64,000 nt of DNA from a virus (taxonomy: Duplodnaviria > Heunggongvirae > Uroviricota > Caudoviricetes): positions 1 to 64,000 of the IMG/VR virus record IMGVR_UViG_3300025000_000063. One strand, written 5' to 3'. Both the position numbers and the translations under genes were made by a program. Under the pieces are notes generated by a model, which worked only from the letters and a program-made list of their open reading frames with translations, ran no database searches and was not told the origin of the DNA. Position 1 is the stretch's first letter; each line of letters begins with the position of its first letter. This document shows, piece by piece, positions 1 to 56,448 of this stretch.

Positions 1-26
1 GTCCATGGAAGAAAGCTGTAGAGATT

Positions 27-563
27 TCATAGGCCCCCCTCCTGTAGCGGTTCTTCACGCTTCCAATGATAAAATATTATACCTAACGTTAAATAGAAAA
101 TTCTAACGCTTGTTAGGTAAACTTTATGTAAGTTACTGATTATAAAAGATTTAAACCATGGGTGGCTTGGATTCTCAGGCAGACCAGCAGAGTTGAAACC
201 CTTGCCTCTCTTACGCTGGTGGCGTATCTCATGACAATCACGGCAGAGTGACATTAGATTGTCCATATCCAGGCGCTTTGACGGATCGTCCTCAACAGGG
301 ATGATGTGATGTACCACTACGGCCGGCCGGATAACACCGGCACCTTGGCAATCAATACATAAGGGGTTTTGTTTGAGATACCAATTCCGGAGCCGCTCCC
401 ACGCCGTATCGTAGCCGCGCGCCCTGGAGCTGGGCCGCTTATCTTGGTCTTGTCGGTATGATTGTTTTTTAGTGTCTTGGATGGACTGGCAGGCAGGGCA
501 GTACGTTGATGTGGTTAGATTCTTTTTACATTTTAAACATGGTTTGTTAGGTGTTTCGGGCAT
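27..563 (-). mobile_element. HNH homing endonuclease (Zn-ribbon + HNH motif)
   Basis: The translation has an N-terminal CxxC...CxxC ribbon. The HNH core reads VVHHIIP...NLMSLCRDCH...H. It sits at the edge of the early region, as is typical for phage homing endonucleases. Confidence 0.6.
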
Positions 564-696
564 TTATATACTGTTGCACTCCGTATGATACACAATTGCC
601 TCACAATACGCTTATGCTTCATGCTTGTCAAGAAATAAGAATTCATATGTCCTATTTTATTTTAAACAATGGTATATAAAACATTTGAAACGCTTT

Positions 697-1125
697 ATTA
701 TCAAAGCTTTCGAAACAAACAAGACGCGCAATGTCCTATAATAAATCAAAGAAGCGCGATGTCTGATTCACTATCTTGAACCAATAAACAAAACCTTGAA
801 AGCCTTTACAGTTAGGGATACCAAGACAAACAAGACATTCAATGTCTTATATTATGTTCAATATTTTGAATCTTTATTGCAATGACGAAAAGCCTTGATA
901 CGCAAAGCTATAAACATCAACAAGACAGTCAAGGTCTGACTATGAGTTCATAATCGTGAACCGATATAAAGATTTAAAGCTTTGGAAAGAACCAGGGGAA
1001 AAAACTTTAAATAGGACTGAAAGCCTTTATTATCAACATTCTTCAATTAAATTTAAAATACTTGGTATGTTTGGCATATGGATTGCATTAAAGAAAAGCA
1101 AGACCGACAATGTAAACACTAAATA
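697..1125. repeat. AT-rich iteron array of about four degenerate ~100 bp units. Each unit carries AAAGCCTT, then AACAAGAC-N3-CAATGTC (an internal palindrome), then TCKTGAACC.
   Basis: The direct repeats are visible at 720-738, 828-846, 918-936 and 1096-1114. AAAGCYTT recurs at 703, 803, 889, 975 and 1019. The region is noncoding. Confidence 0.5.
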
Positions 1126-1139
1126 GAAAGGAACAACCC

Positions 1140-1355
1140 ATGTATAAAAGAACTCCCGACAAATCTGAAATATACCCTCCAGAAGAAGACATAATTAAAA
1201 TAAGCCATATCACTCTTATCCATCAACTACAAAAGAAGATAAGCATGAAACAAACGGATTTTAACATTCTTTGGAAAAGATCCGCGGAATATCTGGAAAG
1301 TTTCAGAAACGACTTGGTTATGGTTTATAACCGAAAAATAAAAGAGGAGAAATAA
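1140..1355 (+). CDS. hypothetical early protein (71 aa)
   Basis: ORF with an AGGAA RBS. No recognisable domain. Confidence 0.4.
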   Translation: MYKRTPDKSEIYPPEEDIIKISHITLIHQLQKKISMKQTDFNILWKRSAEYLESFRNDLVMVYNRKIKEEK

Positions 1356-1360
1356 ATAAA

Positions 1361-1606
1361 ATGATAAAAACAGCCAAAACAATCAAAGATTTTAAAGCCG
1401 ATTTTAAGGGGTATAATATCCTTATCCCCGCGGGATCAACCGTATCAAATAATACAGCCCGCGGACCAGACGACAGCTATCATTTTTGGGTTGATTTTAA
1501 AGAACACGCTGAAAAAATAACCGGACATAAAAACAGTATCTTAAATCATGATCTTACTTACTACGGAATCAACGTCCCGGCTGAATTTTGTGAACCTTAT
1601 TTATAA
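1361..1606 (+). CDS. hypothetical early protein (81 aa)
   Basis: GAGGAG RBS 8 nt upstream. Tightly packed after the previous ORF. Confidence 0.45.
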   Translation: MIKTAKTIKDFKADFKGYNILIPAGSTVSNNTARGPDDSYHFWVDFKEHAEKITGHKNSILNHDLTYYGINVPAEFCEPYL

Positions 1607-1622
1607 AATAGGAGATAAAACC

Positions 1623-2132
1623 ATGAACGAATACCAGAAACAAGCAATCGACTTTTTGACAAAAACCGGCGCAACAATGGACATTATTAAAACGGGTCAC
1701 GGCCTTTATTTCGAAGACGATAAACAAGAAAGAGATATCTATCAAATCACAATCAAACGAGACAAAAGGCAATACTCTTTCCCGTTCGGCCAGTCCATCG
1801 CCAAGTCCGGAATCTACAGGGATAAAGTAACAAAAAAAGAATATTATCCGGACGGATCACCGGTCAACCCATACGGTAACAAAAAAGTTTCACCATCTTT
1901 TCTATCAGATTTTTGCGTCTTTATCCCTGGAAAAGCGCCGTCTGAATACAACGTCCTTGCAGCCTTAACAAAATATGAACCCGGAACCTTTGAAGATTTT
2001 TGCAGCGATTATGGCTATGATTCAGACAGCCGAAAAGCTGAAAAAGTATACAAAGCCGTAGTAAAAGAACTCAAGGCGCTTCAAACACTTTTCAGCGATG
2101 AAGAACTGGAAGAAATGCAGGAAATAAACTAA
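1623..2132 (+). CDS. hypothetical early protein (start adjusted to MNEYQK)
   Basis: An AGGAGA RBS precedes the ATG at 1623. The longer table ORF 1548-2132 probably starts internally. Confidence 0.5.
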   Translation: MNEYQKQAIDFLTKTGATMDIIKTGHGLYFEDDKQERDIYQITIKRDKRQYSFPFGQSIAKSGIYRDKVTKKEYYPDGSPVNPYGNKKVSPSFLSDFCVFIPGKAPSEYNVLAALTKYEPGTFEDFCSDYGYDSDSRKAEKVYKAVVKELKALQTLFSDEELEEMQEIN

Positions 2133-2163
2133 TTTGGCCATAACCTATACGGTTTATAAAACA
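2133..2163 (+). promoter_or_regulatory. early promoter-like motif copy (TTGGCC-N17-TAAAAC with a TACGGTTTATAAAA core)
   Basis: Member of a family of about 10 conserved motifs placed directly upstream of RBS+ATG of early genes. Confidence 0.45.
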
Positions 2164-2176
2164 GGAGAATAATACC

Positions 2177-2788
2177 ATGAGACAAAAAACAATAACGAGA
2201 AACGTTTACAAATTTGAAGAATTGTCAGAAAACGCAAAAGAAAGGGCCCTATATGAATACGGCCTTTTTCTGTCCGCCGAAAATAACTGGCATGAATACG
2301 AGATTGAGTACTGGGCCGAAAAACTTCAAAAAATAGGTTTCCTGAACGCTGATATACGCTTCTCCGGTTTCTGGTCTCAAGGCGACGGCGCAAGTTTTAC
2401 GGCCGACGTTGACCTTGATACTATCGTCAATTCATTGTTATGCTCTGATTATAACCGGTCTTATCTTGCTCTATGCACTATGCAAGATAAAAGCATAATC
2501 GATATTGATATTGACGTAACAAGAAATTCACACCATTACAGCCATGAAATGACCTGCGGCGTCAACATCGACTGGAATTGCTGGGATAAACCTATAAAAT
2601 TTGAAAATTGGTTAATCAGTGTCGTTGACAGCCTTGAAAAAGATATTGAATCGTTACGGTATGATCTTTGCCGGGAAATCTATAAATCCCTGAAAGAAGA
2701 ATATTATTATCAGGTTTCTAAAGAATCGTACAAGGAAACTTGTGACGCTAACGAATATGAGTTTTATTCAGACGGTTCTATGGCTTAA
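2177..2788 (+). CDS. hypothetical early protein (203 aa, acidic, Trp/Tyr-rich)
   Basis: ORF with an AGGAGA RBS, preceded by the promoter motif. Confidence 0.5.
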   Translation: MRQKTITRNVYKFEELSENAKERALYEYGLFLSAENNWHEYEIEYWAEKLQKIGFLNADIRFSGFWSQGDGASFTADVDLDTIVNSLLCSDYNRSYLALCTMQDKSIIDIDIDVTRNSHHYSHEMTCGVNIDWNCWDKPIKFENWLISVVDSLEKDIESLRYDLCREIYKSLKEEYYYQVSKESYKETCDANEYEFYSDGSMA

Positions 2789-2789
2789 A

Positions 2790-2820
2790 TTTGATCATAA
2801 CACGCACGGTTTATAAAAAA
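2790..2820 (+). promoter_or_regulatory. early promoter-like motif copy (TTGATC-N17-TAAAAA)
   Basis: TTTGATCATAACACGCACGGTTTATAAAAAAGGAGA lies directly before the ATG at 2834. Confidence 0.45.
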
Positions 2821-2833
2821 GGAGATAACTGAA

Positions 2834-3211
2834 ATGAAAATTAACACCACGAAAAAAGAAGAAATTTTAAAAGCAATTGAAACTGTTGAACTCAAACAAA
2901 AAGCCCGGCTTTTTAATCCTGATAGAATCACGGCCGGAATAAACGCCGCTGAAAAAATCCTTTCCCAGATGTGCCCGGAAAAATACTGGGCAGGTTCTAC
3001 CATAGAATTTTATCCAGAAAAACTGCCCAATGCTTATAAATCCATCGCTATGGGCACTCATGTACGCGCAGAAAAATATCCTTCGGGATGGTTTATCACA
3101 GATATCCGCCGGGGATATTGCGGAAAAAAGGCCTATGGTTCCGGTCCATCTTCTAAACTTTTTTTGTCAGATCTTACAAAGACAAATTTAAAAACTGAAT
3201 TCATCCTGTAA
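2834..3211 (+). CDS. hypothetical early protein (125 aa)
   Basis: ORF, RBS and promoter motif all present. Confidence 0.5.
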   Translation: MKINTTKKEEILKAIETVELKQKARLFNPDRITAGINAAEKILSQMCPEKYWAGSTIEFYPEKLPNAYKSIAMGTHVRAEKYPSGWFITDIRRGYCGKKAYGSGPSSKLFLSDLTKTNLKTEFIL

Positions 3212-3218
3212 ATTTGTT

Positions 3219-3249
3219 TTTGATCAACAGGTATACGGTTTATAGAATT
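3219..3249 (+). promoter_or_regulatory. early promoter-like motif copy (TTGATC-N17-TAGAAT)
   Basis: TTTTTGATCAACAGGTATACGGTTTATAGAAT. It is followed by an ATCGAYAA repeat cluster rather than an immediate gene. Confidence 0.4.
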
Positions 3250-3434
3250 TGAAAGGACAAAACCTTGACTTATTCACACATCGACAAACAAAACATAATC
3301 GACAACATTTACCAGACTCGATTAAGATTAATCAACCGGCACAAAATCGATTATACCAAGTCAGTTAAAATTTATATTTACTTCATGAATGCCTGGTTAG
3401 GCCGGGTATTTATTTAAAAAAGGAGAACGCTAAA

Positions 3435-3929
3435 ATGAACTCATTTAGAAAGATCAACCCTGCAAGCCCTGAAACAATCCTCAACATGACGGACGAAAAT
3501 CTTGCTATAATGGCCGCCATTACCGGCAAAGATATCAGTATCGGGCAGGCGCCTTTAATTGGCAGGTATGGCAACATTGACGGCAAAAGAATATCCGAGA
3601 CAGAACCAGCCCATGCGGACCTTGACTTTGCCTTTGAATGGGCGGAATCGGGAGAATTATGCCGTATTTATGTGGGCTCCAGAATTCACGGGCCTTTGAT
3701 GTCATGGTCAAGCGATGGATGGCGGAATTGTTACGGACACGGAAATCATGGAAAAAACGGGAGCCATGGCGGAACCTGGTCTTCCTCGTCAAAAGAGGTA
3801 TGGGCTACAATGGCTGAAGCCCTGGAAAACAGATCATACAAAGTCAGCGGAATTATGATGCACAAAAACCGGCTGATTGAAGGCCCTGCGCTTATCGAAG
3901 CGCTTCAAGAAATCGCAAAAACAGAATAA
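3435..3929 (+). CDS. hypothetical early protein (164 aa, Gly/His-rich C-terminus)
   Basis: ORF with an AGGAGA RBS. A truncated motif copy, GGGTATTTATTTAAAAA, lies upstream. Confidence 0.5.
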   Translation: MNSFRKINPASPETILNMTDENLAIMAAITGKDISIGQAPLIGRYGNIDGKRISETEPAHADLDFAFEWAESGELCRIYVGSRIHGPLMSWSSDGWRNCYGHGNHGKNGSHGGTWSSSSKEVWATMAEALENRSYKVSGIMMHKNRLIEGPALIEALQEIAKTE

Positions 3930-3930
3930 A

Positions 3931-3990
3931 TTTGACCTCATGCCCTACGGTTTACAGTTTCTGACCGCGGGACATAGGGTTTATAAAAAC
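3931..3990 (+). promoter_or_regulatory. tandem early promoter-like motifs (TTTGACC..CTACGGTTTACAG and TCTGACC-N17-TAAAAA)
   Basis: Two motif copies sit back to back before the ATG at 4003. Confidence 0.45.
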
Positions 3991-4002
3991 ACAAGGAGCT
4001 CC

Positions 4003-4401
4003 ATGAGAATAAAAGCAGGAAGAAAAAGCGACGGCCCTTGTGAAAGAGCCGAGGAATGCGCCCGGGAAAACGGCTTTACCTTAGAACGGGAGCCTTTTGG
4101 AAAAAGAGGAACAAACGTCGAAATATACTTAAACGGGAAAATGATAGGATACCGAAAAAGCTATCAAGGCGCTATAAATTTTATGAAAAAACACAAAGGA
4201 GAACCAAAACAAATGAGACCAAAATCGAACGTGAAAAATCCTACAGCTATGATAATTAAAAACATCCCCAAATCCTTAAGAAAGGCCGTAAATATTGCCG
4301 CTCAAGAAGCAGATATCACCGCCCAGGAATTACATCGCCGAGCGCTATTCTGGGCTATCAATAACATGAGCACCATTAAAAATATGGAAAACGTGATATA
4401 A
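4003..4401 (+). CDS. small basic protein with a C-terminal ribbon-helix-helix-like (Arc/CopG) DNA-binding motif
   Basis: The C-terminus reads IIKNIPKSLRKAVNIAAQEADITAQELHRRALFWAI, a beta strand followed by two helices. The start at 4003 has a GGAGCT RBS. Confidence 0.4.
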   Translation: MRIKAGRKSDGPCERAEECARENGFTLEREPFGKRGTNVEIYLNGKMIGYRKSYQGAINFMKKHKGEPKQMRPKSNVKNPTAMIIKNIPKSLRKAVNIAAQEADITAQELHRRALFWAINNMSTIKNMENVI

Positions 4402-4409
4402 CGGAATAG

Positions 4410-4456
4410 CATACGGTTTATAGTTTTTGACCAATACGTGTATGGTTTATAAATTT
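4410..4456 (+). promoter_or_regulatory. early promoter-like motif copies (TTGACC-N17-TAAATT)
   Basis: CATACGGTTTATAGTTTTTGACCAATACGTGTATGGTTTATAAATT. Confidence 0.45.
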
Positions 4457-4473
4457 TAATGAAAGGAAAAACA

Positions 4474-4581
4474 ATGACTGAAATTTTTGAATACATTGAC
4501 TCCCTGCCGGATAGAGTTTTCTTAGAGCTATTCGTTCTTTGGGTTATAATTTTACTGGCCCGGCCTAAAACCACCAATTAA
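4474..4581 (+). CDS. very small hydrophobic protein (about 35 aa)
   Basis: ATG 4474 follows a GAAAGGAAAAA RBS. It is below the 60 aa cutoff of the ORF track. Confidence 0.3.
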   Translation: MTEIFEYIDSLPDRVFLELFVLWVIILLARPKTTN

Positions 4582-4594
4582 AAAGGAAAACATC

Positions 4595-4756
4595 ATGAAT
4601 CTTAAAAAAGCACTGCCGGCCCTTGGTTTTTGTTTTGGTCTATTACTTGCATCCAATGACGGGAAATACTTTCCGGGGGTCAATATCGTGGGTCTGTTAG
4701 TCTTCGGCTTAAGCTGTTTTAAAATGAACAAGAATGGTGCGGTTTATAAACTTTGA
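4595..4756 (+). CDS. small membrane protein (53 aa)
   Basis: Translates as MNLKKALPALGFCFGLLLAS...GLLVFGLSCF, with two hydrophobic segments. An AAAGGAAAA RBS is present. Confidence 0.35.
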   Translation: MNLKKALPALGFCFGLLLASNDGKYFPGVNIVGLLVFGLSCFKMNKNGAVYKL

Positions 4757-4781
4757 CCAAGTATAAGACGGTCGAAAAAAC
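4739..4781 (+). promoter_or_regulatory. early promoter-like motif copy (TTGACC-N17)
   Basis: GCGGTTTATAAACTTTGACCAAGTATAAGACGGTCGAAAAAAC. Confidence 0.4.
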
Positions 4782-4796
4782 TTAAAGGAGAAGAAA

Positions 4797-5150
4797 ATGC
4801 GTCAATGGATGGCCGATCCTTCCTTGATGTGTCGTAAGCATTTACTTGGTGAACATGTTGAACACCATATGTTTATCGGCGCTTTAAAAAGAGAAAAGAA
4901 TGTGAACGGATACCTGGAAAAAGGCCTTTTAGAACCGCGATCTTTATTCAAGCGCCATGAAGAACTTGTCAAAGAGATGAAAAAGAGAGGGTATAAACAC
5001 TCTTCTCCTTTAACTAAAGAAGACGCGACTTGCATATCTTACCTTACCGAAAAACAGAAAAAAGCTAAAATAAACGCCGCTGTATCTTACAAAGATCTTG
5101 TATTAAGATGCCCTGAATGCTTCAAACTCATGATGGAGGAAATACGATGA
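4797..5150 (+). CDS. pyrimidine dimer DNA glycosylase (T4 endonuclease V / DenV-like)
   Basis: The N-terminal pattern SLMCRKHLLGEHVEHHM and the LFKRHEELVKEMKKRGYKH block resemble the DenV family, which has L.DQHL.AE.RE near its N-terminus followed by ...L..E..KRGF. This was compared by eye only. Confidence 0.45.
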   Translation: MRQWMADPSLMCRKHLLGEHVEHHMFIGALKREKNVNGYLEKGLLEPRSLFKRHEELVKEMKKRGYKHSSPLTKEDATCISYLTEKQKKAKINAAVSYKDLVLRCPECFKLMMEEIR

Positions 5151-5359
5151 TGACAAGAAAAGACATAGGAAAAAGAGTGATTGTATACCACGAAGAAGAA
5201 TTTTTAACCGGTAGGATATGCCAAGTAATTGAGGGCAACCCTTCTATCAACATCGGGGTAGAATTCGACAAGCCCAAATACTACTTTCATGACTGTGGGA
5301 AAACTTGTTCTAAGGGCTTCGGGTGGTATGTAAATGAAAAAGATATTACCTTCGATTAG
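5147..5359 (+). CDS. hypothetical protein (70 aa)
   Basis: Start MMTRKD overlaps the stop of the previous gene. Confidence 0.45.
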   Translation: MMTRKDIGKRVIVYHEEEFLTGRICQVIEGNPSINIGVEFDKPKYYFHDCGKTCSKGFGWYVNEKDITFD

Positions 5360-5370
5360 CCTGGATGAGT

Positions 5371-5432
5371 ATTTGATCGAAAGTGATACGATCGATAAAC
5401 TTTGATTGAACACGGTATGGTCAAGAAGTTTT
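5371..5432 (+). promoter_or_regulatory. early promoter-like motif copies
   Basis: ATTTGATCGAAAGTGATACGATCGATAAAC, then TTTGATTGAACACGGTATGGTCAAGAAGTTTT, lie before the RBS. Confidence 0.4.
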
Positions 5433-5445
5433 AAAGGAGAACATT

Positions 5446-5844
5446 ATGCAAGTAAACGAATACGCAAAGCACTTCTTCCTGTACGCAAAAGGCTGATATA
5501 GAAGATCGGAAGATCCATGGAAAGACTTAAAAAAGCTTAGGGGGATACACTTTCTAACAGTAGACGGGAAAGAAGAGAAAGATTTAATCCTTAACAAAAT
5601 AACCCAATGCGCTATTGAATGTATTTTAGAACACCCAAAACACAGAACTTTAACTGAATTCCAAGAACTGTTAACCAAACTGTCCCCCAACTACTGGTTA
5701 AGGAACTTTAACAAACCCCCAAAACCCTATGTCTATGAAACCGAACTATTAGAAATATGCTTAAACATTATGCGCTTTTCTAACATTGAAAACTTGAACC
5801 CTGATAAGGATTGCCGGTTTGATGTTTTGCCATCTCCTGAATAA
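5446..5844 (+). pseudogene. 132-codon reading frame interrupted by one in-frame TGA at 5494-5496 (16 aa leader + 115 aa continuation with no start codon)
   Basis: The frame is continuous from ATG 5446 to TAA 5842 except for one TGA. The downstream part reads as plausible protein (…LTVDGKEEKDLILNKITQCAIECILEHPKH…). Confidence 0.35.
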
Positions 5845-5854
5845 CGGCGGCATC

Positions 5855-5918
5855 TTTTTGACCGACAGAGGGATGGTTTCTAAAATTTGATCATAAGGTG
5901 TATGGTCGATAATTTTTT
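5855..5918 (+). promoter_or_regulatory. early promoter-like motif copies (TTTTTGACC... and TTGATC-N17-TAATTT)
   Basis: GGATGGTTTCTAAAATTTGATCATAAGGTGTATGGTCGATAATTTTTT. Confidence 0.45.
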
Positions 5919-5931
5919 AAAGGAGAAAACC

Positions 5932-6156
5932 ATGAAAATAGAAACAATTAAAAAAGCAAACATATTACTGGATAACATCGATAAAGTGGATTTTTTAATG
6001 CGGGATTATGTCCACATCGGCATTTTTACGAATCAAGACAGAGGACCCCAAAGCAGTGAACTCGCCGGCGAAGTAGCAAGCATACTGATAGGTGTGATCA
6101 AAACAGAACTGCCTAAATTGCGGACAAAATACCAAAAACAGCTCGAAGAACTGTAA
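5932..6156 (+). CDS. hypothetical protein (74 aa)
   Basis: ATG 5932 follows an AGGAGAAAAC RBS. Confidence 0.5.
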   Translation: MKIETIKKANILLDNIDKVDFLMRDYVHIGIFTNQDRGPQSSELAGEVASILIGVIKTELPKLRTKYQKQLEEL

Positions 6157-6200
6157 GACAGCACATGAGAGTTTTTACCGCCGCCCGAATAACACTAAAA

Positions 6201-6307
6201 TTTTTGACCCCAACCTGTACGGTCGATAAAAATTCAGAAGCCTTCTTTTTGATCAAGAGGGGTATGGTTTCTAAAATTTGACCAAACCCCTTACGGTCGA
6301 TAAAAAC
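6201..6307 (+). promoter_or_regulatory. three orphan copies of the early promoter-like motif with no downstream plus-strand gene
   Basis: TTTTTGACC-N17-TAAAAA at 6201, TTTTTGATC...GGTATGGTTTCTAAAA at 6246, TTTGACC-N17-TAAAAA at 6277. They abut the 3' end of minus-strand gene 6310-6714. Confidence 0.4.
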
Positions 6308-6309
6308 TT

Positions 6310-6714
6310 CTAAGGTCTGAAACCATCAAACAGAGAACGATTCTGGTTTTCTATTTTAGACATGTCCGCCTTTTCTAAAACCCTAATTCTTTTACGGCCC
6401 TTTATCACATCTTTTTTAACGACAAACACACGGCTGTCAAAATAAACCAAGTATCCAACAAGAAGGGGTAAAATTTTTTCACTCTCTTCCGTCAACCCCG
6501 CAACCTGTATAATCTTCTCAGGTACGGCAGACACAGGCATGAAACCGCCGCAATTGCCGAACTGATTCAACCCCTTACAATCTCCAGGAACCCAATGACC
6601 GTACATAGGGCTGCGGTTAGCGTATTTTGTACACCCATGAATAAAATCCAATTGGTTTTTATACTCAGGCCTTACAAAATATTCACACTCCATGCAAACA
6701 GAAACTACTTCCAT
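6310..6714 (-). CDS. hypothetical Cys-rich protein (134 aa)
   Basis: ORF with a GGAGA RBS. The N-terminal CMECEYF...C...C pattern suggests a metal site. It is the last gene of the leftward operon. Confidence 0.45.
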   Translation of the reverse strand: MEVVSVCMECEYFVRPEYKNQLDFIHGCTKYANRSPMYGHWVPGDCKGLNQFGNCGGFMPVSAVPEKIIQVAGLTEESEKILPLLVGYLVYFDSRVFVVKKDVIKGRKRIRVLEKADMSKIENQNRSLFDGFRP

Positions 6715-6732
6715 TTTTATTTCTCCTTTTTT

Positions 6733-6902
6733 TTATATTTTTTCCAGCTCTTTGTCTATCTCATACCTTCTCCGGGAATTCAAAACAGCAACCAAAAGCC
6801 ACGCCGGAAGCCAAAATCCGGCGGTAAACAAAGTCATGAACAAATGAAAAATATGACTAGTTTGACACGATTGACGCTTTGCTAACAGAACTGATTCTTT
6901 CA
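6733..6902 (-). CDS. small membrane protein (about 56 aa, start MKESVLL)
   Basis: A GGAGGAGAAAAAA RBS precedes the internal ATG. A hydrophobic stretch, LFMTLFTAGFWLPAWLLVAVL, is present. Confidence 0.35.
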
Positions 6903-6929
6903 TTTTTTTCTCCTCCGCGACCAAAAACA

Positions 6930-7700
6930 TTACTTCTTCTGAAACAGTAGCCGTTTTTTCAATTCTTCTTTTGCCCGAAACGCTATAGGCTCTTTTTTTC
7001 TTGCACCACGATTGCAAACTATTTCTATCTCGGTCAGATACCCATCAGATGTTGACTGGTGGGTTATTAAGCTGGGGTACTGTTTAATCTTTTTCTTGAA
7101 GTCAGAGGCGCGGAACTCAGGAACACACATAGCCCTCGACAGGGCTGTAACAAACGGCTTTGATGAAGCGTATTTAAGGCCCAGGCTTTGCATATACAGA
7201 ACCACGTCTTTTATTCTGTCGGTGAGCTTTGTGCTGGTGACTTTGTATGTCCCGTTAATAAACATATCACTGTAGTTTCCGCCGGAACCGGAAGGACTCC
7301 CTCTAAAAAACCCGATGGCGGTCGCGAGAGGAATCCTTGTTTCTTCGATAAAATCCTTTATCACAATATAATCTGGTCTTCCGTCTCTGACATACCCGTT
7401 CAGGAAATCGTGGAGAGACCATTTATTAACCGTCTTGGCCAAGTCGGGGATTGATATATCATCATTGCAGACAACGTATTTCGCCGGTATCCCCAAACTC
7501 TGAGCCACTTCAAGCCGGTGATGGCCGTCAATGACTTTAAATTTTTTGTTACCGTTGACTCTGACATGGCATGGATAAGCAGGTATCCAACCATGTTCAC
7601 GCATTGCCTTTGTTAAAAATCTGATCTTTGAAACATCCCGGTTGATCGGATGGAGTTCAAATTTTTCATAATCTGTCGTTGACCTTACTAAATCATTCAT
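6930..7700 (-). CDS. ParB/Srx-fold N-terminal domain protein (ParB-like nuclease domain)
   Basis: KVIDGHHRLEVAQSLGIP is the characteristic ParB N-terminal GxxR box. The start codon overlaps the upstream gene. Confidence 0.6.
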   Translation of the reverse strand: MNDLVRSTTDYEKFELHPINRDVSKIRFLTKAMREHGWIPAYPCHVRVNGNKKFKVIDGHHRLEVAQSLGIPAKYVVCNDDISIPDLAKTVNKWSLHDFLNGYVRDGRPDYIVIKDFIEETRIPLATAIGFFRGSPSGSGGNYSDMFINGTYKVTSTKLTDRIKDVVLYMQSLGLKYASSKPFVTALSRAMCVPEFRASDFKKKIKQYPSLITHQSTSDGYLTEIEIVCNRGARKKEPIAFRAKEELKKRLLFQKK

Positions 7701-8467
7701 GATACAATCCTTTCTATGTGGTTATTTATCCAAGCGACGACCCTCTCAAAAGCCTCTCTTCTTTGGGGGTCGTCGCTTCTAATCCTTTCTAATTGAGAAA
7801 TCGCCATCGTTGAGAACTGCATTGCAGAAGATGCTCGTTTGATATCTTCTTTTTTTGGCTCAACATTAATTTTCTTATAAGCCCCGGCAACACTCTTGTT
7901 AAGATCCTTCTTTAATTCTTTGGCCTTCTCAGGGTCAGATTGTTTCAAGCTGTCAATAGCATCCACAACAGCAATTGCTTTTTCAGCCGTTTTCCCTGAC
8001 CATCCTACTTTTGCGGCTGCGATGTCACGGGACTTACCTTCGCTTAGTGGTGGTAAATTTTCCACAACTAAAGGTTTGCCTGTTTTATGGACTTCCAGGT
8101 TTTTTGCACCGGCGGCAGCTTGTCTATCAGCCGCCCTCTTATCCTCAATCGCCTTCAACACTTTAACCTCCCTGGCTTTCTGTTCCTTGGTCTTCTCCCT
8201 CTGGACGTTGGAAGCTATAAGAATTTCCACCAGCTTATCCGGGTCGGTTTCTTCAATCTCCTGAACCGGGATGACTTCATGTTTGAGAGCTTTGCAGACA
8301 TTCCAACGACGATGCCCGGAAATGATGGTGAAATCTAAGGTAACGATTACCGGAGAGGTAATGCCGTGTTTTTTTATGCTCTGATAAAGATCGTCGTCAA
8401 ACGAATCACCATATATGAGGTTGTTTTGCGGGTGAGGTTTAAGACTATTAATAGGAGCATGATTCAT
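7697..8467 (-). CDS. ParB-like N-terminal domain protein with a Lys-rich C-terminal half
   Basis: LKPHPQNNLIYGD...ISGHRRW is a ParB-N motif. It is arranged in tandem with the second ParB-like gene. Confidence 0.6.
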   Translation of the reverse strand: MNHAPINSLKPHPQNNLIYGDSFDDDLYQSIKKHGITSPVIVTLDFTIISGHRRWNVCKALKHEVIPVQEIEETDPDKLVEILIASNVQREKTKEQKAREVKVLKAIEDKRAADRQAAAGAKNLEVHKTGKPLVVENLPPLSEGKSRDIAAAKVGWSGKTAEKAIAVVDAIDSLKQSDPEKAKELKKDLNKSVAGAYKKINVEPKKEDIKRASSAMQFSTMAISQLERIRSDDPQRREAFERVVAWINNHIERIVS

Positions 8468-8649
8468 CTCTTCTCCCCCACTTTAATTTTAAAATGTGAT
8501 TCCCATTGAACCGGCACGTTACCTGATTTTTCCCACGCAGTAATCGTGGCCGGATTGATGCCCAAAAACGCCGCCGCAGAAACTTTCGGCTTCGGCGTAT
8601 CTTTAAAATGATTCAGTAATTCTTTTACTTTCATATTGTATCCCTTCAT
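8464..8649 (-). CDS. small HTH DNA-binding protein (Cro/YdaS-like)
   Basis: SAAAFLGINPATITAWEKSG is a helix-turn-helix. A TTGACA-containing palindrome, ACTTGTCAAGT, lies upstream at 8662-8672. Confidence 0.45.
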   Translation of the reverse strand: MKGYNMKVKELLNHFKDTPKPKVSAAAFLGINPATITAWEKSGNVPVQWESHFKIKVGEKR

Positions 8650-8707
8650 GTTTCTTGCACTTTAATCTTTTAAAAAAGACTTGTCAAGTATTTTTTTTTA
8701 TTTTTTT

Positions 8708-8953
8708 TTATTCATCATAAAAGGACGCACAGGTTTCGGTCCCTGGCTCCAATTCAGTGTGACCGGCGTCCTTCACAACAAATGCTCCTTTCTCAAATAC
8801 TATCTCTTTAAATTTCTTATCACTGACGGCCAGCACCACCACATTCATATAATACTCTTTGTGATTAATACCCGTAGCTGCGTGAACCGCTTGAGCGGCC
8901 AACTTACCAGGCGACATTTTCAAATTTTTCCGGTAAATTATTTTGAGTCTCAT
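8708..8953 (-). CDS. PTH2-family peptidyl-tRNA hydrolase-like protein (short, 81 aa)
   Basis: NLKMSPGKLAAQAVHAA matches the PTH2 signature (GKGK[IL]AAQ..HAA). The protein ends with DAGHTELEPGTET and appears to lack the last about 25 residues of canonical PTH2. Confidence 0.5.
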   Translation of the reverse strand: MRLKIIYRKNLKMSPGKLAAQAVHAATGINHKEYYMNVVVLAVSDKKFKEIVFEKGAFVVKDAGHTELEPGTETCASFYDE

Positions 8954-9044
8954 TAAAACACCAAAACATAAATAAACTGAGCCACGGTTGATACGGTCAA
9001 AGACAACAAAATAACCGCCACGGCCATCAATAAAAAATAAATAA

Positions 9045-15805: not shown

Positions 15806-16225
15806 TCATTCCCCCCAGTTAATAACCCAGTTCTTTTCTTTGCAAATAGCTATGATCAAATCTGAGTCTTTCATTGTTGGAGGACCGGGAACCCACAGGT
15901 CTCTTTTCTCTTGGAAAAAATGCAATCTTTCAACTTTTTTCCCGCCATATGGGCATGGGCCGCCATCCGCCCAGATATCAAACATTTCGGGCTTTGGATG
16001 CGCCCAAGCGTCTCTTCGCATAAGTTCAAGCGTGAGAGCGGGTGGCAATTTACCAAGTTGGCATCTTAATATGCTGACCGGGAAGAAAGCAAAGCTGCAC
16101 CGTTCTGCAAAGCTGCACTGTTCCGGGAAGTTTTTGATTAACGAATAATCCCCGGTAGGGCAGTGTTTGACTCTATGATAGTCAACAGGAAATAAATCAA
16201 ATTCTTTTTGTGTGTACTTTTTCAT
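15806..16225 (-). CDS. hypothetical protein (139 aa)
   Basis: ORF. Its stop overlaps the upstream Thg1-like gene. Confidence 0.45.
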   Translation of the reverse strand: MKKYTQKEFDLFPVDYHRVKHCPTGDYSLIKNFPEQCSFAERCSFAFFPVSILRCQLGKLPPALTLELMRRDAWAHPKPEMFDIWADGGPCPYGGKKVERLHFFQEKRDLWVPGPPTMKDSDLIIAICKEKNWVINWGE

Positions 16226-16926
16226 TTCACCAGCTCCTCTATAATTTCCTTGTTTTCAGTGAAAATCGCATCAGGCCTTGCAGAAATCCCCTCCGCTCCT
16301 CTAAACATAAATCCCCCGTTTTTCCATACCGGGTCGAGATCTGCCCAGTTGATTCCTTTTGTGTAGAGCAATTCATGCAGGTCCGGTGTCTTTTTGTTTT
16401 GGAGTTCCTTGTGCGGGAAATGAGCCTGGGCCAGCATTTGAATAGAATTTCTGAGCCAATCTTGTTGCCTCCAGATGAAATAATTACACACCTCTTCCTT
16501 TGGGATATTGAACACCCGGCAGTCGAATAGCCCGTCTTCGCCAAAGGTTTTTGAAAACTGAACCGAGGCCATACCCGCTGCGACTGAACACATTTTTTGG
16601 ATATTGTAATCAAACCATGCCTCGGTTGTTAACAGTTCGTAGTCTGTCAATAATAAGGAGATTTCATCTGATTGAACGTAGGCGCATTTAGCGCCCTGTA
16701 CTTTCGCTAAAAGGGTCAAAGCGGTTGAGCCCATACACTGTCTGAACATATCGTCAAAAGGTTTGTTGCATTGACGAGTCAGCGTGTGAAAGGCCTTGCC
16801 GTCCAGTCGCATTATGACTGGCGTTCGCCGGGTGAGTTTTAACCGGTAGCGGTCTTCATAATTCTTTTTCATTCTGTCGCCTAAACTGTCATTCTTCATA
16901 TAAACCCCCTTTCCTTCGCCAACCAT
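16222..16926 (-). CDS. Thg1-like protein (tRNA-His guanylyltransferase family, 3'-5' nucleotide polymerase)
   Basis: VIMRLDGKAFH and VQSDEISLLL match the two catalytic aspartate-containing motifs of Thg1/TLP ([VI]V[VI]R.DGR.FH and GQSDEYSF). The C-terminal region, YFIWRQQDWLRNSIQ, also resembles the family. The true start is probably MKNDS at about 16899. Confidence 0.7.
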   Translation of the reverse strand: MVGEGKGVYMKNDSLGDRMKKNYEDRYRLKLTRRTPVIMRLDGKAFHTLTRQCNKPFDDMFRQCMGSTALTLLAKVQGAKCAYVQSDEISLLLTDYELLTTEAWFDYNIQKMCSVAAGMASVQFSKTFGEDGLFDCRVFNIPKEEVCNYFIWRQQDWLRNSIQMLAQAHFPHKELQNKKTPDLHELLYTKGINWADLDPVWKNGGFMFRGAEGISARPDAIFTENKEIIEELVK

Positions 16927-17162
16927 TCCGGCATTGTTATTTCCACGGCCTCACCGACCTCCACAGGGTCAGAAACTTCGATTTGGCTTTTGGGTATCCA
17001 TACAGCGTCGTCTTTATTGCCTGTCTCGGAAACAAGGTACGAACGCTCTGTTTCATGATGAATTTCTAAGGTGATTTCGATGTTACTCACGATTGCTCTC
17101 CTTCCATAAAGATCTGAATTTTTCCAGCTTCTCCGCTGGGATAGACACCTGGGCCAGCTCAT
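16896..17162 (-). CDS. hypothetical protein (88 aa)
   Basis: ORF in the operon. Confidence 0.4.
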   Translation of the reverse strand: MSWPRCLSQRRSWKNSDLYGRRAIVSNIEITLEIHHETERSYLVSETGNKDDAVWIPKSQIEVSDPVEVGEAVEITMPEWLAKERGFI

Positions 17163-17304
17163 ACCGCGATATGTCCGCCTGAGTTACTTTGATCATTTTC
17201 GGGTCTGTTTCATTGAACAGTTCCGTGAACTGTTTTTGGGTTAAGCCGAGTTTTAACCGGATCAACCTTATTTCATAGCCTATTTTTTTCTTGATGTCAC
17301 ACAT
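17083..17304 (-). CDS. XRE-family helix-turn-helix transcriptional regulator (Cro/CI-like)
   Basis: IRLKLGLTQKQFTELFN...ISRYE is a classic XRE HTH. The gene is adjacent to the divergent promoter region. Confidence 0.6.
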   Translation of the reverse strand: MCDIKKKIGYEIRLIRLKLGLTQKQFTELFNETDPKMIKVTQADISRYELAQVSIPAEKLEKFRSLWKESNRE

Positions 17305-17584: not shown

Positions 17585-17700
17585 GTACAGTATAAAAATA
17601 CTCGTGTCAAGAGTATTTAAAATATTTTATGGAAAGAAAAAAAACTCTTGACACGAGTATTTTAGGTCTATAATATACATCTCACGAGTAAGCCGTAGAC
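17585..17700. promoter_or_regulatory. divergent promoter/operator region: an inverted pair of 21 bp sites, AATACTCGTGTCAAGAGTATT / AATACTCTTGACACGAGTATT, and a consensus rightward promoter TTGACA-N17-TAATAT (TATAAT overlapping)
   Basis: The sites are at 17595-17620 and 17650-17672. The rightward -35/-10 elements are at 17655-17690. The leftward copy also embeds TTGACA on the minus strand. Confidence 0.6.
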
Positions 17701-54895: not shown

Positions 54896-55297
54896 CTAAA
54901 GGACCTCACTGTCATCAAATGATGGTATAGCTTCAATCTTTGCTGTACTTTTCCCGGTATCCACCAAAATACCGGTATAATCTAACTGAGCTACAATCAC
55001 ACCATACGTCGTTGCTTTTAAACCCTCACCAAGCTTCGCGTAACTTTCAGATGCGTCACCAACGGATTTATTTTGTACCTGTCTTTTAACCGTGGTATAA
55101 AGGAGGTGGGCAGTTAAAAACTGCTCGATCTGCTCCAGTAAAGTGTCATCCATACCAGAGGTTGCAACGGTATTGTCAACCATAGTGGAGGCAAGCACGA
55201 TAAAAGCATCAATCACAATTGAGGAAATTGTATCCGGGATAATTGCCTGAACCTCTACATGATTTGTTCTGCTCATTTGTTCCTCCTGGCACGCCAA
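54896..55297 (-). CDS. head-tail connector / head completion protein (133 aa)
   Basis: Position only. Confidence 0.4.
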   Translation of the reverse strand: MACQEEQMSRTNHVEVQAIIPDTISSIVIDAFIVLASTMVDNTVATSGMDDTLLEQIEQFLTAHLLYTTVKRQVQNKSVGDASESYAKLGEGLKATTYGVIVAQLDYTGILVDTGKSTAKIEAIPSFDDSEVL

Positions 55298-56381: not shown

Positions 56382-56448
56382 GCGACTGTCCTCACATTGG
56401 TGAATTCTTTACGCTCTTTGGCAAACAAATCGCTGTTTCTTTTTAGCA

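What the first reader, a model, noticed from the sequence alone, without database searches (positions are those of the whole stretch)
2133..6307. Family of about 10 near-identical extended promoter motifs driving the small early genes, including three orphan copies
Each early gene from 2177 to 5932 is preceded by TTGAYC-N17-TAAAWW with a conserved inner block, TAYGGTYKATAAAA. Some copies extend to 20 nt of identity (GGATGGTTTCTAAAATTTGAYC at 5871 and 6260). Conservation beyond the -35/-10 hexamers suggests recognition by a phage-specific factor, or a UP/extended -10 design like the T4 early promoters. Three copies at 6201-6307 face the 3' end of a convergent minus-strand gene and have no ORF to drive. 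They may produce an antisense or sRNA transcript, or act as binding-site decoys.
Basis: seen in the sequence. Interest (0 to 1): 0.5.

Follow-up and report, generated by a model that had tools for sequence, protein, structure and literature searches.

The report
Promoter-like repeats at early-gene cassette junctions
An uncultivated groundwater phage carries 14 copies of a 29-base, promoter-like repeat between its small early genes, and comparison with two relatives shows that genes are gained, lost and swapped exactly at these repeats, a pattern already known from T4-like phages.

Summary
The repeat family is real. There are 14 full and 2-3 partial copies of a 29-nt unit, TTGAYC-N11-GGTYKA-TAAAWW. 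All lie on the + strand within 2134-6306. None occurs elsewhere in the ~72-kb genome, in 185,579 reference genomes or in IMG/VR. A metagenome scan recovered two relatives (~80-90% identical where alignable) with 17 and 8 copies.

The unit reads as a medium sigma-70 promoter (-35, 17 bp, -10). However, the most conserved bases (C6, A16, G18, G19) are not positions sigma-70 constrains. The key -10 T is kept in only 62% of copies. The predicted start site falls inside or after the Shine-Dalgarno in 8 of 17 gene-proximal copies. Single units show no RNA-hairpin covariation.

Insertion, deletion and replacement breakpoints between the three phages fall on the copies. Tandem or "orphan" copies are gene-less junctions. 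Some fold into 17-20-bp hairpins, including the conserved one at the convergent end of the operon.

Best reading: compact early promoter/operator modules that also act as homology patches for cassette shuffling. They are analogous to T4-type PeSLs and to mycobacteriophage ESAS. A conserved ribbon-helix-helix protein encoded inside the array is a candidate binding factor. This is a new variant of a known kind, of moderate interest.

The parts
2134..2162 (+). Repeat unit, single copy. It starts 1 nt after the stop of gene 1623-2132. The SD of gene 2177 begins 1 nt after the unit.
   Evidence: PWM 32.5 bits; geometry
2791..2819 (+). Repeat unit, single copy upstream of gene 2834-3211. That gene is absent in relA, where two units sit in tandem instead.
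3220..3248 (+). Repeat unit (TTGATC-17-TAGAAT) upstream of gene 3265-3417.
3932..3989 (+). Tandem pair (units 3932 and 3961) upstream of gene 4003. The spacers are partly complementary and the pair folds at -17.7 kcal/mol (z = -2.7). The orthologous relA pair folds at -22.1 kcal/mol (z = -4.2).
4213..4401 (+). Candidate cognate factor: a 62-aa ribbon-helix-helix-like protein with an internal SD/ATG inside ORF 4003-4401. It is conserved in all three phages and was found nowhere else.
   Evidence: Sub-threshold FitA-like_RHH Pfam hits in all three orthologues. Foldseek top hits are RHH domains, but all have E > 1. Homologues were found only in this lineage. Binding is an inference.
4398..4455 (+). 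Partial unit (3' half only, 4398) followed by a full unit at 4427, upstream of gene 4474.
4724..4781 (+). Degenerate unit at 4724 (inside the end of ORF 4595-4756) followed by a full unit at 4753, upstream of gene 4797 (pyrimidine-dimer glycosylase). This is the left boundary of a cassette that is replaced in relA and absent in relB.
5373..5430 (+). Tandem pair (units 5373 and 5402) upstream of gene 5446-5844. This is the right boundary of the replaced cassette.
5858..5915 (+). Tandem pair (units 5858 and 5887) upstream of gene 5932-6156. Unit 5887 and the gene are absent in relA.
6204..6232 (+). Gene-less ('orphan') unit, first of the terminal array.
6249..6306 (+). Gene-less tandem pair (units 6249 and 6278). 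The spacers GAGGGGT/ACCCCTT are complementary, and bases 6249-6300 form an imperfect ~18-bp hairpin (-23 kcal/mol, z = -4.2). The pair ends 3 nt before the stop of the convergent gene 6310-6714(-). The orthologous pairs in relA and relB keep the hairpin with different spacer sequences.

Best explanation
The element is a lineage-specific 29-bp intergenic repeat, T-TTGAYC-N8-TAYGGTYKA-TAAAWW. It marks the junctions between small gene cassettes in the variable early region of a ~72-kb tailed phage.

Shown:
- All copies lie on the coding strand of the early operon.
- Each copy fills the whole gap between the stop codon of one gene and the Shine-Dalgarno of the next.
- The copies are absent from the rest of the genome and from reference genomes.
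- Insertions, deletions and replacements that distinguish three related phages begin and end in these copies.
- Tandem copies, including the three 'orphans', are junctions without a gene.

Inferred:
1. Each unit is a compact promoter/operator module. TTGAYC and TAAAWW, 17 bp apart, let the host sigma-70 polymerase start or reinforce early transcription with very short leaders.
2. The more strongly conserved bases (C6, A16, G18, G19, T20, ATAAA), which form an imperfect dyad TTGAYC/GRTYRA, are the site of a phage early regulator. The candidate is the conserved ribbon-helix-helix protein encoded inside the array. It would modulate or shut off these promoters.
3. Because about 20 of 29 bp are shared, the copies act as homology patches for the phage recombination system. 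ORFs between them are thereby excised, duplicated or exchanged.
4. Two adjacent units are nearly a palindrome. Where their spacers have become complementary they form long hairpins. At the convergent end of the operon these probably act as a transcription barrier or a 3'-end stabiliser.
For: - Copy number, strand and confinement to the early region.
- Absence elsewhere: (only single chance hits apart from the two relatives).
- Promoter-likeness: -35 TTGAYC matches TTGACA at a mean of 4.2 of 6 positions. Spacing is exactly 17 bp. In the -10 TAAAWW, T1 is present in 35 of 39 copies and A2 in 37 of 39. An A/T-rich stretch lies upstream.
- The same phage has a canonical TTGACA...TATAAT promoter at 17650, so the host reads ordinary sigma-70 signals.
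- No sigma factor or RNA polymerase was found among the families reported for 74+24 ORFs.
- Extra constraint: C6 37/39, A16 39/39, G18 and G19 38/39, with a variable N8 spacer. This indicates selection rather than recent duplication.
- Junction role: 37 of 91 homology breakpoints lie within 15 nt of a unit, against 7.8 +/- 2.7 expected. Within the window's motif region the figure is 14 of 18.
- Specific junction cases: gene 2834-3211 is missing in relA, leaving two tandem units; 4760-5387 is replaced in relA and missing in relB, bounded by units; relA and relB carry unrelated 61-aa ORFs between conserved unit+SD and the next unit; a minus-strand gene in relA is flanked by + oriented units.
- Hairpins: the three orthologous terminal pairs have z = -4.2, -3.2 and -4.5 with different spacer sequences.
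- RHH candidate.
- Precedent: PeSL promoter-stem-loop cassettes that mediate ORFan shuffling in T4-type phages (PMC2839356, PMC4122927).
Against: - T at the last -10 position, nearly essential for sigma-70, is present in only 24 of 39 copies. No copy has the consensus T at -10 position 3 or A at -35 position 6.
- A start 7 nt after the hexamer lies inside or after the Shine-Dalgarno in 8 of 17 gene-proximal copies.
- relB and the first three window genes have no copies, so the copies are not needed for early-gene expression.
- Mosaic breakpoints also occur at copy-free gene boundaries in relB. Part of the breakpoint enrichment therefore reflects gene boundaries in general.
- The RHH assignment rests on sub-threshold matches, and nothing links the protein to the motif except co-occurrence in three close relatives.
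- The terminal hairpins lack a U-tract on either strand.
- No transcription data exist.
Confidence: 0.5

Rival explanations
1. The copies are protein-binding sites only, comparable to stoperators or roadblock operators. They are not promoters. The early operon is transcribed from the repeat-rich region at 600-1130. A phage (or host) DNA-binding protein binds the oriented sites between genes to attenuate or silence elongation or to organise the DNA.
For: - The best conserved positions are not those sigma-70 constrains.
- The arms form an imperfect dyad.
- All copies have one orientation relative to transcription, sit in short intergenic gaps and are absent from host-type genomes. These are the same properties as mycobacteriophage stoperators (PMC9283540).
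- An RHH-like protein is conserved inside the array.
- The start-site geometry is unfavourable for promoters.
Against: - A -35/-10 pair at exactly 17 bp in a conserved 29-mer is unlikely by chance. The scan finds about 0.001 promoter-like sites per position.
- Stoperators are spread over whole genomes of temperate phages. Here the sites cover 4 kb, and no integrase or immunity repressor appeared among the families reported.
- The half-sites are 17 bp apart centre to centre, which is unusual for small dimeric binders.
Confidence: 0.2
2. The element acts at the RNA level, as proposed for the SAS/ESAS repeats of Cluster K mycobacteriophages. Transcribed as part of the polycistronic early mRNA, the sequence just 5' of each Shine-Dalgarno would act in translation initiation, processing or stability. 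For example, it could be the site of a translational regulator or an endonuclease. The tandem-pair hairpins could be RNase III sites or 3' protectors, as in the T7 early mRNA.
For: - The last unit always abuts the Shine-Dalgarno, 1-12 nt away.
- All copies are on the sense strand.
- Variable positions Y5 and Y21 both face a constant G, so the variation is neutral for G-U wobble pairing.
- Tandem pairs fold better than shuffles, and compensatory spacers occur in six pairs.
- The anatomy resembles ESAS: an imperfect inverted repeat with a variable spacer, start-associated, in one orientation, confined to the non-structural region (PMC3203893).
Against: - Single units fold no better than shuffles (z = +0.7 to +1.8 for the three single-unit regions and the 4398/4427 region).
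- No covariation at any of 9 candidate pairs in 39 copies. Positions 2/22 are mismatched in 27 of 39 copies.
- There is no Rfam match.
- About 40% of copies are not next to any Shine-Dalgarno. One relA copy (5778) lies antisense within a minus-strand gene pair.
Confidence: 0.12
3. The orphan copies (6204-6306) are active promoters that make an antisense or small RNA against the convergent minus-strand operon, or act as decoys.
For: Units 6249 (TTGATC-17-TAAAAT) and 6204 are among the best promoter matches. They face gene 6310-6714(-). The array is conserved in relA and relB.
Against: - The gene they face is not conserved. It is replaced by an unrelated 68-aa gene in relA and is absent in relB, so there is no conserved antisense target.
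- The conserved feature is the hairpin formed by the tandem pair, maintained by compensatory spacer changes.
- Gene-less tandem copies also occur inside the operon, where genes were lost.
Confidence: 0.1
4. The copies are functionless repeats that spread by duplication and recombination, either selfish or mere scars.
For: Copies come and go between close relatives. Tandem duplications with near-identical spacers occur (relA 2903/2932). Many early genes do without copies.
Against: Twenty positions stay conserved while the 8-nt spacer diverges freely, even between orthologous copies. Strand and placement relative to stop codon and Shine-Dalgarno are strict. The element is retained in three phages that are 10-20% diverged.
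Confidence: 0.08

Closest known systems
PeSL (promoter-early stem-loop) cassettes of T4-type phages (Arbiol, Comeau et al. 2010, PMC2839356; Comeau et al. 2014, PMC4122927)
   Same: - Short conserved sigma-70-like early-promoter motifs with an A/T-rich upstream stretch.
- Concentrated in variable regions full of small early genes of unknown function.
- Insertions, deletions and replacements between close relatives begin and end in the motifs.
- Associated stem-loops often built on GGGG...CCCC. The complementary spacers here are GAGGGGT/ACCCCTT, GGGGG/CCCCCC and TAGGGTA/TACCCTA.
   Different: - The phage is unrelated: it has a long tape-measure protein, lambda-like tail-tube and tail-terminator domains, and the host is unknown.
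- The unit is only 29 bp and has no separate stem-loop. A hairpin appears only when two units are in tandem, and it then contains the second promoter-like site.
- The -10 is weaker.
- The unit abuts the Shine-Dalgarno.
- Promoter and terminator activity and mini-circles were shown experimentally for PeSLs. Nothing has been tested here.
Extended start-associated sequences (ESAS/SAS) of Cluster K mycobacteriophages (Pope et al. 2011, PMC3203893)
   Same: - Imperfect inverted repeat with a variable spacer, placed immediately upstream of the ribosome-binding site.
- One orientation.
- Restricted to the non-structural part of the genome and absent from host genomes.
- Associated with genes of different families.
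- No support for an mRNA hairpin from co-variation.
- Function was still unknown in 2025 (PMC12699233).
   Different: - The sequences are unrelated.
- ESAS arms are 17 bp with a 4-13-bp spacer. Here the arms are 6 bp with a fixed 11-bp spacer.
- ESAS are not promoter-like and do not occur in tandem arrays.
- Cluster K phages are temperate actinobacteriophages.
Stoperators of Cluster A mycobacteriophages (L5 gp71 sites; PMC9283540, PMC6550527)
   Same: Many copies of an asymmetric site in short intergenic gaps, oriented with respect to transcription and bound by a phage regulator.
   Different: Stoperators are 13 bp and spread over the whole genome. They act in lysogeny through the immunity repressor. 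Here the copies are confined to 4 kb, and no lysogeny genes appeared among the families reported.
Multi-promoter early regions of lytic phages (T4 early promoters; SPO1 host-takeover module). This comparison rests on general knowledge and was not checked in papers here.
   Same: Many small early genes served by a series of similar host-type promoters whose conservation extends beyond the two hexamers.
   Different: Those promoters match the consensus closely and have leaders long enough to carry the ribosome-binding site. Here the match is moderate and predicted leaders are 7-19 nt.

Membership tests
sigma-70-type promoter | -35 hexamer close to TTGACA | tested here: met
   TTGAYC: T1 31/39, T2 38/39, G3 38/39, A4 36/39; mean 4.2 of 6 matches. 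Position 6 is C in 37/39 and never A.
sigma-70-type promoter | 16-18 bp between the hexamers | tested here: met
   Exactly 17 bp in all 39 copies.
sigma-70-type promoter | -10 hexamer close to TATAAT with A at position 2 and T at position 6 | tested here: inconclusive
   TAAAWW: A2 37/39, but T6 only 24/39 and T3 0/39; mean 3.9 of 6 matches. Five of 14 window copies pass the standard scan.
sigma-70-type promoter | Start site placed so that the mRNA carries the ribosome-binding site of the gene it serves | tested here: not met
   A predicted start at +7 lies inside or after GGA(G) in 8 of 17 gene-proximal copies. Leaders would be 7-19 nt. This is a prediction only.
sigma-70-type promoter | Mapped transcription start or activity in a reporter | not testable with these tools
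   Uncultivated phage; no transcript data.
PeSL cassette (T4-type phages) | Located in a variable region, flanking small early genes of unknown function | tested here: met
PeSL cassette (T4-type phages) | Indel and replacement breakpoints between close relatives fall in the motifs | tested here: met
   37 of 91 breakpoints within 15 nt, against 7.8 expected; 14 of 18 inside the motif region. Caveat: all gene boundaries in that region carry a copy.
PeSL cassette (T4-type phages) | Stem-loop that works as a terminator, placed upstream of the promoter | tested here: not met
   Single units have no stem-loop. Hairpins arise only from tandem pairs, overlap the second unit and lack a U-tract.
PeSL cassette (T4-type phages) | Circular DNA formed by recombination between flanking motifs | not testable with these tools
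   Needs inverse PCR on phage DNA.
PeSL cassette (T4-type phages) | Carried by a T4-like myovirus | tested here: not met
   Tape-measure protein of 1478 aa, lambda-like tail-tube and tail-terminator domains, and no T4 core genes among the Pfam hits.
ESAS/SAS (Cluster K mycobacteriophages) | Immediately upstream of the start codon or ribosome-binding site, in one orientation, in the non-structural region | tested here: met
   About 40% of copies are internal members of tandem arrays or are gene-less.
ESAS/SAS (Cluster K mycobacteriophages) | SAS consensus GGGATAGGAGCCC and 17-bp inverted-repeat arms | tested here: not met
   The sequence is unrelated, with 6-bp arms and an 11-bp spacer (PMC3203893).
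Stoperator | Copies spread through the whole genome of a temperate phage with an immunity repressor | tested here: not met
   Copies lie only in 2134-6306 of ~72 kb. No integrase or repressor family was reported, although only the 25 commonest families were listed.
Structured RNA element (hairpin within one unit) | Stability above shuffles and compensatory changes | tested here: not met
   z = +0.7 to +1.8 for the three single-unit regions and the 4398/4427 region. Shuffle controls reach the observed values in 218-252 of 500 trials. No dependence at 9 candidate pairs in 39 copies. No Rfam hit.
Intrinsic terminator (terminal tandem pair 6249-6306) | G+C-rich stem followed by a run of U | tested here: not met
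   The stem is present (-23 kcal/mol, z = -4.2). It is followed by UAAAAACUUCU on the + strand and AAAGAAGG on the - strand.
Ribbon-helix-helix DNA-binding protein (for ORF 4213-4401) | Significant match to an RHH family, or the beta-alpha-alpha fold | tested here: inconclusive
   FitA-like_RHH E = 0.066, 6.7e-4 and 4.7e-3 for the three orthologues, all below the gathering score. The monomer model has mean pLDDT 82. Foldseek top hits are PutA, ORF56, VapB, CopA, FitA and Arc RHH domains, but all have E > 1.

The most novel reading that the evidence does not exclude
The 29-bp unit is not primarily a host-type promoter. Instead it is the recognition site of a lineage-specific factor, most plausibly the conserved ribbon-helix-helix protein encoded in the middle of the array. 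Together they would form a dedicated system that regulates early genes and also directs precise gain, loss and exchange of single-gene cassettes. This would be a functional counterpart of the unexplained ESAS repeats, or a recombinase-free analogue of an integron cassette array, in a lytic phage.
Probability: 0.2. Interest if true: 0.6.

Novelty: new variant of a known kind. Interest (0 to 1): 0.4.

Why it matters
Oriented, gene-start-associated repeats in the early regions of phages are seen repeatedly (PeSLs, SAS/ESAS, stoperators). Their function is established for only some of them. This lineage offers a compact example: 29 bp, with three natural variants from one aquifer. In these variants the same repeat can be seen bounding insertions, deletions and replacements of single ORFs. 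The conservation pattern also separates a promoter-like frame from an additional recognition block. If the promoter/operator reading holds, it extends the PeSL principle from T4-like myoviruses to an unrelated tailed phage of an unknown environmental host. In that principle, regulatory repeats double as homology patches for shuffling accessory genes. If the reading fails, the element joins ESAS as an unexplained class worth an experiment. It also has practical value: the motif is a precise marker for finding the early, hypervariable region in related metagenomic contigs.

Tried and rejected
- RNA hairpin within one unit (TTGAYC pairing with GGTYKA). Rejected: only the middle 4 bp pair consistently, there is no covariation, and folding is no better than shuffles.
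- Known RNA family. None reaches gathering score in 1-9000; the only listed match (drz-agam-1, 2947-2994, E = 0.55, 22.8 bits against a 37-bit cut-off) lies outside any repeat unit.
- Host genomic repeat or host promoter type. Scanning 185,579 species genomes gave 26 single hits, fewer than chance expectation. IMG/VR gave 43 single hits.
- Relatives found through the primase-helicase (L044-L048). These are 60-66% G+C and carry no motif. No phage record is similar at the DNA level. The early protein 2177-2788 is a widespread phage accessory protein and says nothing about close relatives.
- ParB-like protein (7697-8467) as the binding factor. Rejected because relA lacks that gene but keeps 17 copies.
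- Phage sigma factor or RNA polymerase. None appears among the families reported for about 100 ORFs.
- Other promoter classes, compared by eye with consensus sequences recalled from memory; none fits:
  - sigma-28 (TAAA-N15-GCCGATAA): GTCGATAA is present in about a third of copies, but the upstream element is 5 nt out of place.
  - sigma-B type (GTTT-N12-14-GGGTAT): the key G bases are missing.
  - sigma-54: no GG/GC pair at the required spacing.
  - Bacteroidetes -33/-7 (TTTG...TAnnTTTG): one base out of register, and the genes have strong Shine-Dalgarno sites.
  - Archaeal TATA box (TTTATAAA): the predicted start would fall after the ATG.
  - TAYGGT as the true -10: there is no -35 element 17 bp upstream.
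- Terminal hairpin as an intrinsic terminator. There is no U-tract on either strand.
- Spacer complementarity as a general property of tandem pairs. It holds for only 6 of 16 pairs (permutation p = 0.06 overall). Dimer-hairpin covariation is marginal (20-29 of 500 shuffles reach the observed values).
- Search for more RHH homologues to test co-occurrence. Six proteins were found; the four whose contigs were fetched are re-assemblies of relA or relB, and two were not fetched.

Full report
**1. What is in the sequence**

Window 1140-6156 is a + strand run of small genes with strong Shine-Dalgarno sites. From 2134 to 6306 the gaps between them are filled by a 29-nt unit: TTGAYC, 11 nt, GGTYKA, TAAAWW.

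A weight matrix built from the copies finds 14 sites at 23-37 bits, all on the + strand. Their starts are 2134, 2791, 3220, 3932, 3961, 4427, 4753, 5373, 5402, 5858, 5887, 6204, 6249 and 6278. The next best sites on either strand of the 64 kb are the partial copies at 4724 (14 bits) and 4398 (10 bits) and one 11-bit chance site. Shuffled windows reach 12-15 bits. A third partial copy (3' half only) lies at 1305.

Adjacent copies are exactly 29 nt apart. A single copy begins 1-4 nt after the stop codon of the upstream gene. It ends 1-12 nt before the GGA(G) of the next ribosome-binding site, so it occupies the whole 44-46-nt gap.

- There are 14 full copies rather than about 10.
- Mean column identity is 65%, not near-identity.
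- 8 of 12 genes between 2177 and 5932 are directly preceded by a copy.
- The exact block shared by 5873 and 6264 is 18 nt.

**2. Where the window comes from**

The exact proteins are on record in groundwater metagenomes (PRJNA268031 and related ENA/JGI assemblies). Those contigs are 99.9-100% identical to the window.

Gene content is that of a tailed phage:
- HNH endonuclease, ParB-like protein, primase-helicase, SNF2 helicase and family A DNA polymerase;
- a 1478-aa tape-measure protein and lambda-like tail-tube and tail-terminator domains;
- a capsid protein, with terminase and portal just beyond the window end.

The genome is about 72 kb. The 8 kb outside the window has no copy of the motif. 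There are no tRNA genes and no similar phage record at the DNA level.

No sigma factor, RNA polymerase or integrase appeared among the families reported. For one search only the 25 commonest of 39 families were listed.

A canonical promoter, TTGACA followed by TATAAT, sits in the divergent region at 17650. The host therefore presumably reads ordinary sigma-70 signals.

**3. Relatives**

The motif pattern gave only single, chance-level hits in IMG/VR (43) and in one genome for each of 185,579 species (26). In JGI metagenomes it picked out three contigs from a sister sample of the same aquifer that carry many copies.
- relA is L108 joined to L092, 6094 nt, with 17 copies.
- relB is L107, extended by L127 to 14.2 kb, with 8 copies.

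All copies are on the gene strand, none is on the other strand, and none lies outside the early region. Both relatives are about 80-90% identical to the window where they align.

Thirty-nine copies give the consensus T-TTGAYC-(R/A-rich N8)-TAYGGTYKA-TAAAwwTT.

**4. Is it a promoter?**

For:
- TTGAYC and TAAAWW are 17 bp apart in every copy.
- TTGAYC matches TTGACA at 4.2 of 6 positions on average. The second hexamer has T1 in 35 of 39 copies and A2 in 37 of 39.
- The stretch upstream is A/T-rich.
- Promoter-like sites occur at only about 0.001 per position in this region, so the resemblance is unlikely to be accidental.

Against:
- T at the last -10 position is kept in only 24 of 39 copies. 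None has the consensus T at -10 position 3 or A at -35 position 6.
- The strongest constraints lie where sigma-70 has none: C6 (37/39), A16 (39/39), G18 and G19 (38/39).
- Only 5 of the 14 window copies pass a standard scan.
- A start 7 nt after the hexamer would lie inside or after the Shine-Dalgarno in 8 of 17 gene-proximal copies. Leaders would be 7-19 nt in all. By contrast, the canonical promoter at 17650 has a leader of about 70 nt.
- About ten early genes of relB, and the first three of the window, have no copy.

The copies may well be promoters, but they are neither required for nor well placed to 'drive' the adjacent gene. The conserved inner block also needs another explanation. The 8-nt spacer diverges freely, even between orthologous copies, so the block is under selection rather than recently copied.

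**5. Is it an RNA structure?**

TTGAYC and GGTYKA are partly complementary, with 87% of cells pairing. However:
- Only the central four pairs are constant, and positions 2/22 are mismatched in 27 of 39 copies.
- No pair shows dependence between its two sides.
- Shuffle controls match the observed values.
- Single copies fold no better than shuffles.
- Rfam has nothing above threshold.

A hairpin within one unit is rejected.

Two adjacent units are almost a 52-nt palindrome around the TAAAWT junction. Of 16 tandem pairs, nine fold with z below -1.5. Six have complementary spacers that give 17-20-bp stems of -18 to -24 kcal/mol.

The pair at the end of the operon keeps this hairpin in all three phages with different spacer sequences:
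- window: GAGGGGT/ACCCCTT;
- relB: AGGGGCAT/ATACCCCT;
- relA: TATAGGGTA/TACCCTATA (z = -4.2, -3.2 and -4.5).

This is suggestive of compensatory change, but it rests on few sequences. The overall covariation test is marginal. The hairpins are not followed by a U-tract on either strand.

**6. What comparison shows directly**

Homology between the three phages breaks at the copies.
- Gene 2834-3211 of the window is absent from relA. There the units corresponding to 2791 and 3220 are adjacent (2903/2932).
- Window 4760-5387 (pyrimidine-dimer glycosylase plus a 70-aa gene) is replaced by unrelated sequence in relA and is absent from relB. Both boundaries lie inside units.
- Unit 5887 and gene 5932-6156 are absent from relA.
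- relA and relB carry unrelated 61-aa ORFs between a conserved unit+SD and the next unit.
- In relA a 68-aa minus-strand gene sits between two + oriented units (5529 and 5778). One copy therefore lies antisense inside a minus-strand gene pair.

Of 91 internal breakpoints, 37 lie within 15 nt of a unit, against 7.8 +/- 2.7 expected. Inside the window's motif region the figure is 14 of 18.

One caveat applies. In that region every gene boundary carries a unit, and relB shows mosaic boundaries without units. The units are therefore sufficient markers of junctions, not proven causes.

Tandem and 'orphan' copies are best read as junctions that currently hold no gene.

**7. The three orphan copies**

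The arrangement is one unit, a 16-nt gap, then a hairpin-forming tandem pair. It is conserved in relA (with an extra unit) and in relB. It fills the space between the convergent + and - transcription units, ending 3 nt from the stop of 6310-6714(-).

The gene the copies face is not conserved: it is unrelated in relA and absent in relB. This argues against a specific antisense target. A barrier or 3'-end-protecting hairpin between convergent units is the more economical reading. It is inferred, not shown.

**8. Candidate factor**

The ParB-like gene is missing from relA, so it is excluded as the factor.

The only putative DNA-binding gene inside the array that all three phages share is a 60-62-aa protein. 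In the window it is 4213-4401, with its own SD inside ORF 4003-4401. Evidence that it is ribbon-helix-helix-like:
- sub-threshold FitA-like ribbon-helix-helix matches in all three orthologues;
- a monomer model (mean pLDDT 82) whose best Foldseek neighbours are ribbon-helix-helix domains (PutA, ORF56, VapB, FitA, Arc), all with E > 1.

Homologues were found only in this lineage. Small repressors of this fold that bind within a promoter are known. An example, from general knowledge, is P22 Arc at Pant. The idea that this protein binds the dyad TTGAYC/GRTYRA that overlaps the -35 and the spacer is an inference with no direct support.

**9. Comparison with known systems**

The closest functional analogue is the PeSL of T4-type phages. 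PeSLs are conserved early promoter plus stem-loop cassettes that flank ORFans in hyperplastic regions, and recombination between them produces indels and replacements (PMC2839356, PMC4122927). The present element shares the location, the promoter-like frame, the GGGG/CCCC-type stems and the breakpoint pattern. It differs in phage type, size (29 bp) and the lack of a separate terminator stem-loop, and it has no experimental support.

The closest anatomical analogue is the ESAS of Cluster K mycobacteriophages. These are imperfect inverted repeats with a variable spacer just upstream of the ribosome-binding site, in one orientation, confined to the non-structural half, without hairpin covariation, and of unknown function (PMC3203893, PMC12699233).

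Stoperators share orientation and intergenic placement, but they are genome-wide sites of an immunity repressor (PMC9283540).

The element is not a member of any of these families. It works most like a PeSL.

**10. Verdict**

The best-supported account (confidence 0.5) is a compact early promoter/operator module that doubles as a homology patch for shuffling single-gene cassettes, with gene-less tandem copies forming hairpins.

Rivals:
- protein-binding sites without promoter activity (0.2);
- an RNA-level start-associated signal (0.12);
- antisense promoters for the orphan copies (0.1; this rival concerns only those three copies, so the figures are not meant to add to 1);
- functionless repeats (0.08).

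This is a new variant of a known kind, of moderate interest.

Noticed in passing
window 600-1130: The non-coding region upstream of the early operon has its own repeat families. There are four copies of AACAAGAC-N3-CAAKGT (712, 823, 913, 1091), several followed by TATAAT-like hexamers. There are also three copies of TTCAnTATnTTGAAYC at a 90-nt period (767, 857, 947). The region is about 80% conserved in relA and relB. It is probably the primary early promoter/regulatory region or an origin.
   Followed up: partly
window 5446-5844 (TGA at 5494-5496): This 132-codon early gene has an in-frame TGA at codon 17, where the relA and relB orthologues have TGG (Trp). The TGA is identical in several independent assemblies. 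It is either a nonsense mutation (a truncated gene or pseudogene) or a read-through or recoded codon.
   Followed up: partly
window 17590-17665 and 17083-17304(-): Two perfect 15-bp inverted repeats, ACTCGTGTCAAGAGT and ACTCTTGACACGAGT, lie about 35 nt apart in the divergent intergenic region. Each contains TTGACA, and the right one is followed by TATAAT. They sit next to a 73-aa XRE-like helix-turn-helix gene. This looks like a classical repressor/operator switch for the middle genes.
   Followed up: no
window position 1 (and 37 nt to its left): Several independent assemblies from different samples end at window position 1 or 37 nt before it, next to the HNH endonuclease gene 27-563(-). Small terminase, large terminase and portal lie beyond the right end of the window. 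This suggests a physical genome end (cos or terminal repeat) there and a genome of about 72 kb.
   Followed up: partly
window 4003-4401: The ORF joins a 70-aa N-terminal part to the RHH-like 62-aa part. The latter has its own Shine-Dalgarno and ATG at 4213. In relA and relB the RHH gene stands alone directly after the tandem units. The window may therefore make two products or carry a gene fusion.
   Followed up: partly
window 6310-8953: The segment next to the early region is also mosaic. relA lacks 6914-8953 (two 256-aa genes, including the ParB-like one) and has an unrelated 68-aa gene in place of 6310-6714. relB lacks 6310-6714 and 6914-8696.
   Followed up: partly
window 8708-8953(-), 16222-16926(-) and the structural module 55000-60000: The accessory genes are unusual for a phage. 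They include a PTH2-type peptidyl-tRNA hydrolase, a Thg1-like tRNA-His guanylyltransferase, a ProQ C-terminal-like domain protein (position not determined), and radical SAM, glycosyltransferase and APS-kinase-like genes among the structural genes.
   Followed up: no
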